In this document: piece by piece, positions 21,099-24,000 of the stretch | How the letters are laid out: each line of letters opens with the position of its first letter | Numbering within the stretch: position 1 is the stretch's first letter | Source: Escherichia phage RCS47 | Sequence record: NC_042128.1 | DNA length: 64,000 nt | Direction: 5' to 3' (one strand) | Made by a program: the position numbers and the translations under genes | The notes under the pieces: model-generated | Told to the model about the DNA's origin: nothing | What the model saw: the letters and a program-made list of their open reading frames with translations, nothing else | Databases searched by the model: none

Positions 21099-24000
21099 AA
21101 GAGCTGTGCTATGGATCTGTTTGCAGTGGAATTGAAGCCGCGAGTATTGCCTGGGAACCGTTGGGTATGCGTCCGGCGTGGTTTGCTGAAATCGAGCCTT
21201 TTCCATCTGCCGTTCTTGCGCTCCGCTGGCCCCATGTCGCCAACCTTGGCGACATGACAAAACTTGCCAAAAAAGTCTTGGCTGGGGAAATCGAATCCCC
21301 TGACGTGCTCGTCGGGGGAACACCATGTTTTACCGCGGGGCATATGGTTCTTTGTAAAAATGGTTATAAACCAATAGAAGATGTTTGCCCTGGCGATTAC
21401 GTAGTCAGTCATCTCGGGCGGTTACAACAAGTAAAAAGAGTTGGTTCAAAAATAGCTAATACGGGGTTACTTAATGCCGTTGGGCAGCCTTTAGGTATAA
21501 GAACAACCAATGACCATCCCTTCCTGGCTGTTCGGTGGAAAGCCCAAAACACCCGGAAAAATGGCACATATTTTAAGAGAGAGTTGTTGTCTGAACCGGA
21601 ATGGCGAGCAGCATGTGATATGCCGGGATATCAATGGTGCGCTCTAACTAATTTCAATATTGCATCTCCAGATATTTGTTCTCGGTTCTTGTCTGAAGAA
21701 CAGGCTATGTATCTTGCGGGCGCTTATGTAGGCGATGGATATATTAGGAGATGGAGAGGTAAATCTAAGAAGGCGGTTGTTTTTGGCATAAATTGCCAGA
21801 AATTGAGAAAGTTTCATTGCCACATACCAGAAAACATGTTTTCCGTGGCAAGCGAAATCCGAGGGAGCATCAAAGTAACCTTGAATGATACGTGTTATGC
21901 CAATTGGCTTAATGAACATTTTGGCGAGTTAAGCCATGCTAAACGTATCCCTGCATGGGTGATGTCGCATCCATTGCGTCATGTGTTTTTACAAGGCTAT
22001 CTTGATACTGATGGGACACCAAGTGGTAAAGCGGGATTTAGAATTAATAGTGTTAGTCCTGCGCTTGCTTGGGGCGTTGCGGGGTTGTCACAGACTTGTG
22101 GTTATGTTTCTTCGGTCAGCTTTATTGAAGTTGAGCCCAAAAAAGTGATCGAGGATCGCGTGGTAAATCAACGGGATTATTATCAGGTAACAATCTGCCC
22201 GCAGAAATTGTCACGTAAATCAAGATTGGCTCATGGAATGCTTTTACGAACAGTCAAAGAGTTTAAATCGGTAGGCCTAGATACTGTATACAACATAGAA
22301 GTCGAAGGTGATCATTCCTATATCCTCAATGGTGCGGTGGTCCATAACTGTCAGGCATTCAGTATCGCGGGATTACGTGGTGGGCTTGATGATGAGCGTG
22401 GCGCGCTAACTTTAAAGTATGTGGAGCTTGCAAATGCAATTGACGACAAACGGGCTGAGTCATTTCTCAAACCGACAGTTATCGTCTGGGAAAATGTCCC
22501 AGGAGTCCTGTCATCGGCAGATAACGCCTTCGGATGTTTCCTTGCCGGATTGGCTGGAGAAGATGCGCCATTTGAACCAGGTGATCGACCTGAATCAGGA
22601 AAAAGTAACGCGTTCTGGCGGTGGGATGGCAAAACCGGTTGCCATGCTCCAAAGTGGCCGCAGTGTGGTTGTATTTATGGACCGCAGCGAAAGGTGGCCT
22701 GGAGAATCCTTGATGCCCAATACTTCGGAGTGGCACAACGACGCCGACGCGTGTTTGTTGTCGCAAGTGCTCGAACAGACCTCGATCCCGCAACGGTACT
22801 TTTTGAGTTCAAAGGCGTGCGCCGGAATATTGCGCCGAGCCGAAAAAAGAAGGAAATCGCTTCCGCCATTATTGCAAATGGCGCTGCAATCAGTGGCGAA
22901 AGCCTAAATCCATGCCTACACGCTGACATGCCACCCGGTATGAAATCGACGAAAGCCGTAAACGCTTTCAGGATGGCAGCATTTGGGGAATATATTGACG
23001 ATGAAACCGCATCGACAGTAAAGGCAAGAGATTTTAAAGATGCCACTGACCTTGCCGTTTTTAGCAGCACAGGAGCAGGTTTTTGGTCAGAAGGGCATGG
23101 TACATTGCGGGCACGTGAGCAAGAAAGCCATGAGCATCTTGTTACATTGGCTTTTCCTGAGCGTATGAGCGGTACACAACATGCTGCAACTAAGAATACT
23201 TCACCATCTCTAATGGCTAAAAATCCAACAGCTGTTTGCTATGAAGTAAGAAACGCAGAAGTAGCTGTCCGCCGTCTTACCCCTGTCGAATGTGAAAGGC
23301 TGCAAGGTTTTCCTGATGGGCATACGTTGATCCCGACGGAAAAGCGTAAAAAAGTTAATTCAGATGAACTGGCATATCTTCGCAATCACTATCCAGATTT
23401 AAGCGAAGAAGAGGCCGCGATGCTTGCAGCTGACGGACCGCGTTACAAAGCGATCGGCAATAGTATGGCAATACCAGTAATGCGCTGGATTGGCGATCGG
23501 ATTACTAAGTCCGTATGTCGGCAGAAAGAAGGAAGTGAAACAAAAGAGCGAAAAGTTAAACCAGCGGCAGAATTCGAACGGTCCATATTCAAATGGGCTG
23601 GTGGAAAATTTGGTGTTCTGGAACAAATCTTTCGCTATTTGCCAGAAGGGAAGCGCCTGATTGAACCTTTCGTTGGTGGCGGAGCTGTCTTCATGAATGC
23701 CGGATACCAGGAAAATCTGCTAAATGATGTGAATGCTGACCTGATTAACTTTTACAAGACTCTGCAACGCGAGGCGCATTCACTTATCACTCTGGCACAT
23801 CGTTTCTTCCAGGACTACAACACACAGGAAGGATACCTGGCAGTACGGAATGCGTTTAACAAACAAGTCTATGATGATTTACATCGCGCAGCGGCGTTTT
23901 TGTTCCTGAACCGACATTGTTTTAACGGATTGACGCGTTACAACCAGGCCGGTGAGTTCAATGTCGGTTATGGGAAGTATAAAACTCCGTATTTCCCATT

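What the first reader, a model, noticed from the sequence alone, without database searches (positions are those of the whole stretch)
21326..22348. LAGLIDADG intein splitting the catalytic PCQ motif of the phage Dmt C5-methyltransferase
Seen in sequence: the 1095-aa dmt ORF reads ...DVLVGGTP | CFTAGHMVL...(341 aa)...ILNGAVVHN | [12 protein letters not shown]. Deleting 21326-22348 recreates [12 protein letters not shown], the motif IV catalytic Pro-Cys of C5-MTases. The insert has intein block A (Cys1), block B (TNDHPF), two LAGLIDADG-type motifs ([21 protein letters not shown]), block F/G ([21 protein letters not shown]) and a +1 Cys. The remaining 754 aa are a complete C5-MTase ([20 protein letters not shown]) fused to a Dam-like domain (KWAGGK, DPPY); I recall P1 Dmt as about 754 aa, which fits. 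Inference: methylation activity would depend on protein splicing, and the endonuclease domain suggests homing into intein-less dmt alleles. I do not know of a described intein in a P1-family methyltransferase.
Basis: partly seen in the sequence, partly recalled or inferred. Interest (0 to 1): 0.85.

Follow-up and report, generated by a model that had tools for sequence, protein, structure and literature searches.

The report
Homing intein inside phage P1 methyltransferase
The DNA-methyltransferase gene (dmt) of this P1-like phage-plasmid is interrupted, exactly at the catalytic Pro-Cys of its cytosine-methylase half, by an intact self-splicing protein element (intein) carrying a homing endonuclease; about a quarter of P1-like plasmids and one laboratory P1vir stock carry it, none annotates it as an intein, and I found no paper describing it.

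Summary
ORF 21095-24382 (+) encodes a 1095-aa Dmt. Residues 78-418 (nt 21326-22348) are an in-frame 341-aa insert. Reference P1 Dmt (754 aa, 99% identical) lacks exactly this segment, and its absence gives GTP|CQAFS. The insert has every class-1 intein signature: Cys1, [20 protein letters not shown] and a +1 Cys. It also has two LAGLIDADG motifs with both catalytic Asp residues. Pfam and NCBIfam profiles hit it. An AlphaFold model (pLDDT 93.9) matches PI-SceI, TliVMA and PI-PfuI (E 1e-16 to 1e-10).

The intein is patchily distributed. It is in about 133 of 497 P1-like plasmids and in 152 of 5426 complete E. coli genomes. It is always 1023 nt and intact. It is less diverse than its flanks. Identical intein haplotypes sit in dmt genes with different target-recognition regions, and differentiation from empty alleles is confined to about ±150 bp. 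These are population signatures of homing.

Relatives 30-52% identical occupy the same PC|Q site in other C5-methylases. Inteins in actinophage C-5 methylases are already reported, so this is a new member of a known kind. Three points stand out: it occurs in E. coli and P1vir, it has a native -1 proline, and it is unannotated. Only C5 activity, probably not the Dam domain, should depend on splicing. Splicing and cleavage are untested.

The parts
21095..24382 (+). dmt precursor ORF, 1095 aa with a GTG start: N-extein, intein, then C-extein (rest of the C5-MTase plus the Dam domain)
   Evidence: 99% identical to Dmt of phage Ro157c2YLVW and, outside the insert, to reference P1 Dmt
21095..21325 (+). 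N-extein (aa 1-77): C5-MTase N-terminal part (SVCSGIE motif) ending in ...VLVGGTP, the first half of motif IV
21323..21325 (+). -1 Pro codon CCA. Its third base (21325, A) is the only fixed nucleotide difference between intein-containing alleles (48/48 A) and intein-free alleles (78/78 T)
21326..22348 (+). Intein, 341 aa, 1023 nt, 43.0% GC against 49.1% in the exteins: a Hint splicing domain split by a double-motif LAGLIDADG endonuclease domain
21326..21328 (+). Cys1 (block A), the nucleophile of the first N-S acyl shift
   Evidence: kept in 48/48 alleles and in all homologues that cover the junction
21506..21517 (+). Block B, TNDH (Thr61, His64)
21713..21739 (+). LAGLIDADG motif 1, LAGAYVGDG (catalytic Asp137)
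21938..21958 (+). Conserved AKRIPAW segment of the endonuclease domain. Lys206, Pro209 and Trp211 are at least 90% conserved among homologues
21989..22015 (+). LAGLIDADG motif 2, LQGYLDTDG (catalytic Asp229)
22286..22348 (+). Blocks F and [22 protein letters not shown] (Asp329, His330, His340, terminal Asn341)
   Evidence: aligns with the Spl DnaX mini-intein C-terminus; TIGR01443
22349..22351 (+). +1 Cys. It is both the splicing nucleophile and the catalytic Cys of C5-MTase motif IV (PCQ)
22349..23509 (+). C-extein part 1: rest of the C5-cytosine MTase ([12 protein letters not shown], variable target-recognition region, GNSMAIPV)
23594..24292 (+). C-extein part 2: Dam-like N6-adenine MTase domain (KWAGGK ... 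DPPY)
   Evidence: PF02086, E 2.1e-56; TIGR00571, E 7e-74

Best explanation
This is a canonical class-1 intein with an embedded monomeric double-LAGLIDADG homing endonuclease. It sits in the dmt gene of a P1-family phage-plasmid, between the Pro and the Cys of the C5-methylase catalytic PCQ motif.

Inferred mechanism. The gene is translated as a 122-kDa precursor. Cys1 attacks the Pro77-Cys78 peptide bond (N-S acyl shift). The +1 Cys, which is the methylase's catalytic Cys, takes over the N-extein by trans-thioesterification. Asn341 then cyclises with help from His340 and releases the 38-kDa intein. An S-N shift restores the GGTP-CQAFS peptide bond and gives the 83-kDa Dmt. Until splicing occurs the C5 active site is disrupted, whereas the C-terminal Dam domain is probably active either way.

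At the DNA level, the freed endonuclease is predicted to cut intein-free dmt alleles at about GTCGGGGGAACACC(T)|TGTCAGGCATTCAGTATCGC when two P1-like genomes meet in one cell. Repair then copies the intein together with a short stretch of flanking sequence.

What is shown: the anatomy, the fold, the conservation, the patchy distribution and the recombination/co-conversion signature. What is inferred: that the protein splices, that the endonuclease cleaves, and that either still happens today.
For: The insert is precise, in frame and absent from 99%-identical orthologues. All splicing residues and both LAGLIDADG Asp residues are present. They are invariant in 48/48 P1-family copies, all exactly 1023 nt with no stop codon or frameshift. 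They are conserved in homologues down to 29% identity.

Profile hits: LAGLIDADG_3, Hint_2 and Intein_splicing, and TIGR01443 plus the intein segments of RNR, GyrA, RFC, RtcB and DnaB models. The AF2 model has pLDDT 93.9 and pTM 0.90. Its top Foldseek PDB hits are PI-SceI, TliVMA, PhoVMA, PI-PfuI and PI-PkoII at E 1.5e-16 to 4e-9, followed by I-DmoI and I-SceI for the endonuclease domain.

Purifying selection: pN/pS is 0.24 within the intein.

Mobility signatures. About 133 of 497 dmt-bearing plasmids carry the intein, as do 152 of 5426 E. coli genomes. Intein nucleotide diversity is 0.0064, against 0.04-0.09 in the adjacent N-extein of the same alleles. Net divergence between intein-containing and intein-free alleles is confined to about -140..+160 nt of the junction. 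A 5' flank haplotype (GATGTGCTGGTGGGAGGGACACCA) is found only in intein-containing alleles. Identical intein haplotypes occur in dmt genes of 1013, 1095 and 1148 aa, that is, with different target-recognition regions. Intein GC is 43% against 49% in the exteins. Homologous inteins sit at the same GGxP|C...N|CQ site in unrelated hosts: Mannheimia, Actinobacteria and a high-GC viral contig.
Against: There is no experimental evidence of splicing or cleavage. The -1 residue is Pro, and published work states that inteins generally fail with a -1 Pro (PMC6486613; PMC13014065), so efficient splicing cannot be taken for granted. dmt is non-essential in Dam+ hosts, so a non-splicing insert could persist. 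The population patterns could also arise from ordinary homologous recombination among P1-like plasmids after a single ancient insertion. The perfect A/T association at position -1 fits tight linkage as well as it fits target immunity. The recent pN/pS of 0.24 is somewhat more relaxed than in the exteins (0.11-0.13).
Confidence: 0.85

Rival explanations
1. The intein still splices, but its homing endonuclease is no longer active or has no cleavable targets left. It now spreads only vertically and by general homologous recombination among P1-like plasmids. The patchy distribution reflects an old invasion followed by shuffling.
For: All 78 sampled empty alleles carry T at position -1 and all 48 occupied alleles carry A. 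This is what one would see if every remaining empty site were resistant. Eight empty-site loci match the main intein-containing flank in the 63 nt compared around the junction except for that one base, yet remain uninvaded. Linkage equilibrium beyond about 150 bp shows that recombination is intense in this gene regardless of homing. One distant homologue (P0009) has Asp-to-Asn in LAGLIDADG motif 2, so endonuclease decay does occur in this family.
Against: Both catalytic Asp residues and the conserved Lys206 are intact in 48/48 copies, with no indels or stop codons. pN/pS is 0.24 across the whole intein. Intein diversity is several-fold lower than that of its flanks, which points to a recent spread.
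Confidence: 0.3
2. The insert is a non-splicing or poorly splicing intein. It permanently inactivates the C5-methylase half and is tolerated because only the Dam half of Dmt matters to the phage.
For: The -1 residue is Pro, reported to block splicing in the natural and engineered inteins tested. dmt is dispensable in Dam+ hosts. C5 activity of P1 Dmt is annotated only as 'perhaps'. Some intein-containing dmt genes are further disrupted downstream, for example L004 by an IS200/TnpB element and L007 by an internal stop.
Against: Cys1, Thr61/His64, Asp329/His330, His340/Asn341 and Cys+1 are invariant in all P1-family copies. They are conserved in homologues at 29-52% identity, almost all of which also have a -1 Pro. 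That conservation is hard to explain unless splicing with a -1 Pro is selected. The C5-MTase motifs of the exteins stay intact and under purifying selection (pN/pS 0.11-0.13).
Confidence: 0.12
3. The segment is not an intein. It is a domesticated nuclease or DNA-binding insertion, or a bacterial intein-like (BIL) domain, that works as part of a fused methylase-nuclease enzyme.
For: Methylase-endonuclease fusions exist, and an in-frame LAGLIDADG insertion outside an intein has been described in actinophage methylases (PMC9957025).
Against: The LAGLIDADG domain is nested inside a complete Hint domain with canonical termini and a +1 Cys. The whole-length structural matches are to true inteins. 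The insert is absent from 99%-identical functional orthologues and disrupts the catalytic dipeptide. BIL domains lack an endonuclease domain and the canonical +1 nucleophile context (established knowledge).
Confidence: 0.03

Closest known systems
PI-SceI (Sce VMA1 intein) and the archaeal homing-endonuclease inteins TliVMA, PhoVMA, PI-PfuI and PI-PkoII
   Same: They share the architecture: a class-1 Hint splicing domain with a nested double-motif LAGLIDADG endonuclease, Cys1, a terminal HN and a Cys +1. They are the best structural matches (Foldseek E 1.5e-16 to 4e-9), and there is a weak sequence match to PI-PkoII in the LAGLIDADG region.
   Different: Sequence identity is only 11-16%. This intein is compact (341 aa against 360-540). 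Its host protein is a phage DNA methyltransferase rather than a V-ATPase, RNR or polymerase, and its -1 residue is Pro.
Inteins in actinobacteriophage DNA methylases (N6/N4 and C-5; Kelley et al. 2016, PMC5050341; PMC9957025; bioRxiv 10.1101/2025.01.02.630785)
   Same: They are phage-borne, sit in DNA methylase genes, often carry LAGLIDADG endonucleases, and show patchy distribution and horizontal transfer between divergent methylases. My 29-36% identical hits in actinobacterial C5-methylases at the same motif IV site (P0018, P0020, P0022, P0023) may belong to that set.
   Different: The host range differs (Enterobacteriaceae P1-like phage-plasmids against Actinobacteria). Here the extein is a bifunctional C5+Dam fusion. 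The papers I could read do not give the insertion site relative to the PCQ motif.
Allelic inteins at the PC|Q site of other C5-methylases (Mannheimia haemolytica 'Hint domain-containing protein' P0012; IMG/VR contig L126; metagenomic P0007-P0013)
   Same: The insertion point is the same (GGTP|CFTAGH...VVHN|CQ), identity is 48-52%, the length is the same and the motifs are the same. These are the true family of this intein.
   Different: Their exteins are stand-alone C5-methylases without a Dam fusion. The Mannheimia C-extein is truncated just after the intein. One relative (P0025) is a mini-intein that lacks the endonuclease domain.

Membership tests
Intein (class 1, Hint fold) | In-frame insertion at a conserved site, absent from close orthologues, whose removal restores the host motif | tested here: met
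   P1 Dmt (754 aa) aligns with a single 341-aa gap at GTP|CQ. 363 plasmids carry the uninterrupted junction.
Intein (class 1, Hint fold) | N-terminal Cys/Ser (block A) and block B TxxH | tested here: met
   Cys1 and T61-N-D-H64 are present. They are invariant in 48 alleles and conserved in homologues.
Intein (class 1, Hint fold) | Blocks F and G with terminal His-Asn, followed by a +1 Cys/Ser/Thr | tested here: met
   [12 protein letters not shown]...VVHN|C is present. TIGR01443 scores 30.8 bits against a cutoff of 15.6. The C-terminus aligns to that of the Spl DnaX mini-intein.
Intein (class 1, Hint fold) | Hint (Hedgehog/intein) beta-fold | tested here: met
   The AF2 model has pLDDT 93.9. 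Whole-length Foldseek matches go to PI-SceI, TliVMA and PI-PfuI, and partial matches go to the Prp8 and gp41-1 mini-inteins. Pfam Hint_2 scores 28.5 bits against a cutoff of 28.4.
Intein (class 1, Hint fold) | Autocatalytic protein splicing that produces ligated exteins and free intein | not testable with these tools
   This needs expression followed by western blot or mass spectrometry. The native -1 Pro makes the experiment worthwhile.
LAGLIDADG homing endonuclease (monomeric, double motif) | Two LAGLIDADG helices, each ending in a catalytic acidic residue | tested here: met
   LAGAYVGD137G and LQGYLDTD229G are present. Pfam LAGLIDADG_3 scores E 2.4e-8, above its cutoff. Both Asp residues are invariant in 48 alleles.
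LAGLIDADG homing endonuclease (monomeric, double motif) | Duplicated alpha-beta-beta-alpha-beta-beta-alpha fold | tested here: met
   Foldseek matches I-DmoI, I-SceI, I-AniI and I-OnuI over about 180-250 aligned columns. The secondary-structure order of residues 124-292 fits this fold.
LAGLIDADG homing endonuclease (monomeric, double motif) | Site-specific cleavage of the intein-free allele, and homing | not testable with these tools
   Only indirect support is available: patchy distribution, low intein diversity, flank differentiation confined to about ±150 bp, and the same intein haplotype in different dmt backgrounds.
C5-cytosine DNA methyltransferase (PF00145) as host protein | Motif IV PCQ with the catalytic Cys, plus ENV, QRR and GN motifs | tested here: met
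   PF00145 scores E 6e-30 even in the precursor. The motifs were located, and PCQ is regenerated only after excision.
Bacterial intein-like (BIL) domain | Hint domain without a nested endonuclease, typically lacking the canonical +1 nucleophile, located in variable (not conserved) sites of secreted or hypervariable proteins | tested here: not met
   Here there is a nested endonuclease domain, a canonical HN|C junction and a location in the most conserved motif of the enzyme. The sequence match to a BIL structure was only E 0.89.

The most novel reading that the evidence does not exclude
This is a naturally proline-tolerant intein: it splices efficiently with a native -1 Pro, uses the methylase's catalytic Cys as its +1 nucleophile, and does so in E. 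coli and in a common laboratory phage (P1vir). Its endonuclease is still active, and the single synonymous base at position -1 (CCA against CCT) decides whether an empty dmt allele is cleavable or immune. That would maintain the stable polymorphism of about 27% occupied and 73% empty alleles in P1-like plasmids. A bolder extension is that splicing is conditional (redox- or DNA-dependent) and times C5 methylation during the P1 life cycle.
Probability: 0.25. Interest if true: 0.7.

Novelty: new member of a known kind. Interest (0 to 1): 0.5.

Why it matters
(1) Phage P1 is a classical model and a daily laboratory tool. An intact, unannotated intein in its dmt gene, present in a sequenced P1vir stock, means Dmt biology needs re-reading in intein-containing strains: its size, its C5 activity and its specificity variants.

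Here about 3% of complete E. coli genomes carry a natural intein on P1-like plasmids, which gives a native and genetically tractable system for studying splicing and homing in vivo.

(3) The family's obligatory -1 Pro contradicts the practical rule that inteins do not work next to proline. If it does splice, it is a useful addition to the protein-engineering toolbox.

(4) The data set is ready-made for population genetics of the homing cycle. It contains hundreds of occupied and empty alleles, a single fixed adjacent SNP, and co-conversion-sized differentiation.

(5) Annotation: hundreds of records label the 1095- and 1013-aa proteins only as 'Dam family ... methyltransferase'. The 341-aa length difference is neither a misassembly nor a new domain.

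Tried and rejected
Literature. Searches for intein + dmt + phage P1, intein + P1-like + methyltransferase, and intein + phage-plasmid + E. coli found no description. The few hits used 'intein' in unrelated contexts. The intein survey of Novikova et al. does not mention methylases.

Sequence search of PDB chains. It gave only weak hits: the Spl DnaX C-terminus at E 0.0014 and PI-PkoII at E 0.016. Fold comparison was needed for a firm assignment.

PHROGs. The only informative hit was the intein segment of an anaerobic RNR family.

Shifted DNA boundaries. I asked whether moving the insertion boundary by one base could explain the CCA/CCT difference. It cannot: a shift of one base would predict CCC, not CCT (reasoned from the sequences).

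Fixed-offset diversity upstream of about -260 nt. These values are inflated by indels in hrdC in some loci, so I used only net divergence there.

Internal late promoter. I looked at the 'LPdam2' promoter annotated inside P7 dam as a possible route to intein-independent Dam expression but did not pursue it.

The family picture was already clear without them.
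Full report
**1. Observation**

The window carries a 1095-aa ORF at 21095-24382 on the + strand. Nucleotides 21326-22348 translate to an uninterrupted 341-aa segment, CFTAGHMVL...ILNGAVVHN. The preceding residues are ...DVLVGGTP and the following ones are [12 protein letters not shown].

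**2. Identity of the locus**

The window is a P1-family (Punavirus) phage-plasmid. dmt and its neighbours (upfB, uhr, hrdC/rdgC, tRNA-Asn, tRNA-Thr) are colinear with phage P1. The intein DNA is 100% identical to E. coli S51 plasmid NZ_CP015997.1.

Reference P1 Dmt (NC_005856) is 754 aa. It aligns to the window protein at 99% identity with one gap of exactly 341 residues between GTP and CQ.

Outside the insert, Pfam and NCBIfam find a C5-cytosine methylase (PF00145, E 6e-30) and a Dam-family N6-adenine methylase (PF02086, E 2e-56; TIGR00571, E 7e-74).

**3. What the insert is**

*Profiles.*
- LAGLIDADG_3 scores E 2.4e-8, above its gathering score.
- Hint_2 scores 28.5 bits against a cutoff of 28.4.
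- Intein_splicing scores below its cutoff.
- TIGR01443, the intein C-terminal splicing region, scores 30.8 bits against a cutoff of 15.6.
- There are also weak matches to the intein segments of intein-containing RNR, GyrA, RFC, RtcB and DnaB models.

*Residues*, numbered from the intein's Cys1:
- Cys1
- Thr61 and His64 (block B)
- LAGAYVGD137G
- a conserved AK206RIPAW segment
- LQGYLDTD229G
- block [10 protein letters not shown]329H330SY
- block G, VVH340N341
- Cys+1

*Structure.* An AlphaFold2 model built on an 18-sequence alignment has mean pLDDT 93.9 and pTM 0.90. Its best PDB matches are the full-length endonuclease-containing inteins:
- PI-SceI, E 1.5e-16
- TliVMA, E 3e-16
- PhoVMA, E 1e-10
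- PI-PfuI, E 2e-10
- PI-PkoII, E 4e-9

These are followed by the free-standing LAGLIDADG enzymes I-DmoI and I-SceI and by mini-inteins.

This is a textbook class-1 intein with a nested monomeric LAGLIDADG endonuclease. The +1 Cys is the catalytic nucleophile of C5-methylase motif IV, so the intein borrows the enzyme's own active-site Cys for trans-thioesterification.

**4. Distribution**

| Collection | Finding |
|---|---|
| INPHARED phages | Ro157c2YLVW and a 'P1' record (OP279344) carry the intein; P1 reference, P7, SJ46, JL22 and others do not |
| PLSDB plasmids | 497 carry the dmt 5' region; 363 have the uninterrupted junction; about 133 carry the intein (about 27%), in Escherichia, Salmonella and Shigella |
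| Complete E. coli genomes | 152 of 5426 carry it; 148 copies on plasmids and 5 on chromosomes |

OP279344 is the P1vir stock of a laboratory collection, sequenced for an Argonaute study (PMC10250240).

Every record I saw annotates the protein only as 'Dam family site-specific DNA-(adenine-N6)-methyltransferase', 'DNA cytosine methyltransferase' or 'Dmt'.

**5. Integrity and selection**

I extracted 126 P1-family dmt loci from PLSDB, RefSeq, INPHARED and IMG/VR. Some IMG/VR contigs were fetched twice. Of these, 48 loci carry the intein, making 33 unique haplotypes. In all 48 the intein is exactly 1023 nt with no stop codon or frameshift, and all ten key residues are unchanged.

On a 12-sequence subset, pN/pS is 0.24 in the intein against 0.11-0.13 in the flanking exteins. 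So the intein is under purifying selection, though it is somewhat more relaxed than in the host gene.

**6. Signatures of mobility**

(a) Intein nucleotide diversity is 0.0064. The adjacent N-extein of the same alleles has diversity of 0.04-0.09. The intein is therefore younger than the allelic diversity around it.

(b) Net divergence between occupied and empty alleles is about 0 except between roughly -140 and +160 nt of the junction, where it reaches 0.011-0.038. That is the size expected of co-conversion tracts.

(c) One 5' flank haplotype, GATGTGCTGGTGGGAGGGACACCA, differs from the empty-site flanks only at synonymous positions. It occurs only in occupied alleles. This fits a flank imported together with the intein from a diverged donor gene.

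(d) Identical intein nucleotide haplotypes occur in dmt genes of 1013, 1095 and 1148 aa. These equal the 672-, 754- and 807-aa classes plus 341, and the classes differ in the target-recognition region.

(e) Intein GC is 43.0% against 49.1% in the exteins.

(f) The only fixed difference is the base immediately 5' of the intein. It is CCA in 48/48 occupied alleles and CCT (once CTT) in 78/78 empty alleles. Eight empty-site loci match the commonest occupied flank in the 63 nt compared around the junction except for this base. This can be read in two ways. It may be pure linkage, because the base next to the intein is always co-converted. Or T at -1 may make the remaining empty sites immune to cleavage. 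Sequence alone cannot decide between them.

**7. Wider family**

A search of 5.8 billion proteins with the intein alone returned 27 hits. Nearly all carry PF00145.

- Relatives at 48-52% identity sit at the identical GGTP|C...HN|CQ position. They include Mannheimia haemolytica (578 contigs), several metagenomic proteins, and an 850-aa stand-alone C5-methylase on a 44-kb high-GC viral contig.
- Relatives at 29-36% identity sit at the same motif in actinobacterial C5-methylases, at GGFP|C..|CQD and SPE|C..|CTNHS.
- One relative is a mini-intein without the endonuclease (P0025).
- One has Asp-to-Asn in LAGLIDADG motif 2 (P0009).

Motif IV of C5-methylases is therefore a recurrent intein site with its own intein lineage.

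**8. Mechanism and caveats**

The proposed chemistry is the standard four-step class-1 pathway. It is inferred here from residue conservation, not shown.

*Which activity depends on splicing.* Only the C5 domain is interrupted. The Dam domain (precursor aa 834-1066) is far downstream and should be active in the precursor too. P1's known requirement for GATC methylation at pac (PMC12707154) is therefore unlikely to depend on splicing. dmt is non-essential in Dam+ hosts (PMC10695390).

*The -1 proline.* The -1 residue is proline. Published work states that natural and engineered inteins had failed with a -1 Pro until special Ssp DnaX variants were made (PMC6486613), and a recent systematic scan again found no splicing with a -1 Pro (PMC13014065). 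In this family the -1 Pro is dictated by the PCQ motif and is present in almost all homologues, while the splicing residues stay conserved. That argues the lineage has adapted to proline. It also keeps a 'poor splicer' rival alive.

**9. Comparison with what is known, and novelty**

Inteins with LAGLIDADG endonucleases are classical. Inteins in phage DNA methylases, explicitly including C-5 methylases (IPR001525), are reported for actinobacteriophages. Some homologues are auto-annotated as 'Hint domain-containing' or 'DOD-type homing endonuclease'.

I found no paper describing an intein in P1 or P1-like dmt. This rests on the open-access library only. InBase and the subscription literature could not be checked.

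Verdict: this is a real, intact, probably active intein and a new member of a known kind. It gains some interest from its host (the E. coli/P1vir model system), its prevalence, its -1 Pro and the clean population-genetic pattern.

Noticed in passing
L003 (NC_005856 P1 reference) dmt codon 74; corresponds to window 21314-21316: The reference P1 Dmt reads VLVWGTPCQ (Trp74), while the other 17 of the first 18 alleles checked read VLVGGTPCQ, and its junction DNA haplotype (GTCTGG...) occurs only once among the 99 loci. This is a non-conservative change inside motif IV, three codons from the intein site. It might impair C5 activity in the sequenced laboratory P1 c1-100 strain, and it lies inside the predicted homing site.
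   Followed up: partly
window 22800-23500 (dmt target-recognition region); L002, L015, L017, L018: P1-family dmt comes in several length classes that differ in the C5-MTase variable (target-recognition) region: 672, 754, 759, 807 and 862 aa without the intein. The rest of the gene is more than 95% identical. This suggests modular swapping of cytosine-methylation specificity.
   Followed up: partly
L002 = OP279344 (P1vir laboratory stock), locus 3001-6042: A sequenced laboratory P1vir differs from the Lobocka reference P1 in dmt. It has the intein and the 672-type target-recognition region, so 'P1' stocks in use are not isogenic at this locus.
   Followed up: partly
L004 (NZ_CP100503) 4754-5623; L013 (NZ_CP102674) 208-2324; L007 (NZ_CP158335) 3806-3894: dmt is independently disrupted in several plasmids: by an IS200/IS605 tnpA-tnpB element, by an IS21-family (IS100kyp) element, and by an internal stop. 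This fits dmt being dispensable in Dam+ hosts.
   Followed up: no
P0012 (Mannheimia haemolytica, 439 aa; 578 contigs): The Mannheimia homologue keeps an intact intein, but its C-extein ends 24 residues after the junction (CQSDKGGTVKASGGGFEWRE). It looks like an intein surviving in a decayed chromosomal C5-methylase gene.
   Followed up: no
P0025 (306 aa, partial) and P0009: At the same PC|Q site there is a mini-intein that lacks the endonuclease domain (P0025) and a full-length relative with Asp-to-Asn in LAGLIDADG motif 2 (P0009). These look like different stages of the homing cycle within one intein lineage.
   Followed up: no
L001 (MH160767 Ro157c2YLVW) 7041-7127, compared with window 25056-25209: The Ro157c2YLVW record annotates an extra 87-nt tRNA-Tyr(gta) between tRNA-Asn and tRNA-Thr. 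In the window ARAGORN finds only Asn, Thr and Met, as in P1.
   Followed up: no
L018 (P7) 1989-2007: The P7 record annotates a predicted late promoter (LPdam2) inside dam/dmt, upstream of the Dam domain. If real, the Dam half could be expressed separately from the intein-bearing C5 half.
   Followed up: no
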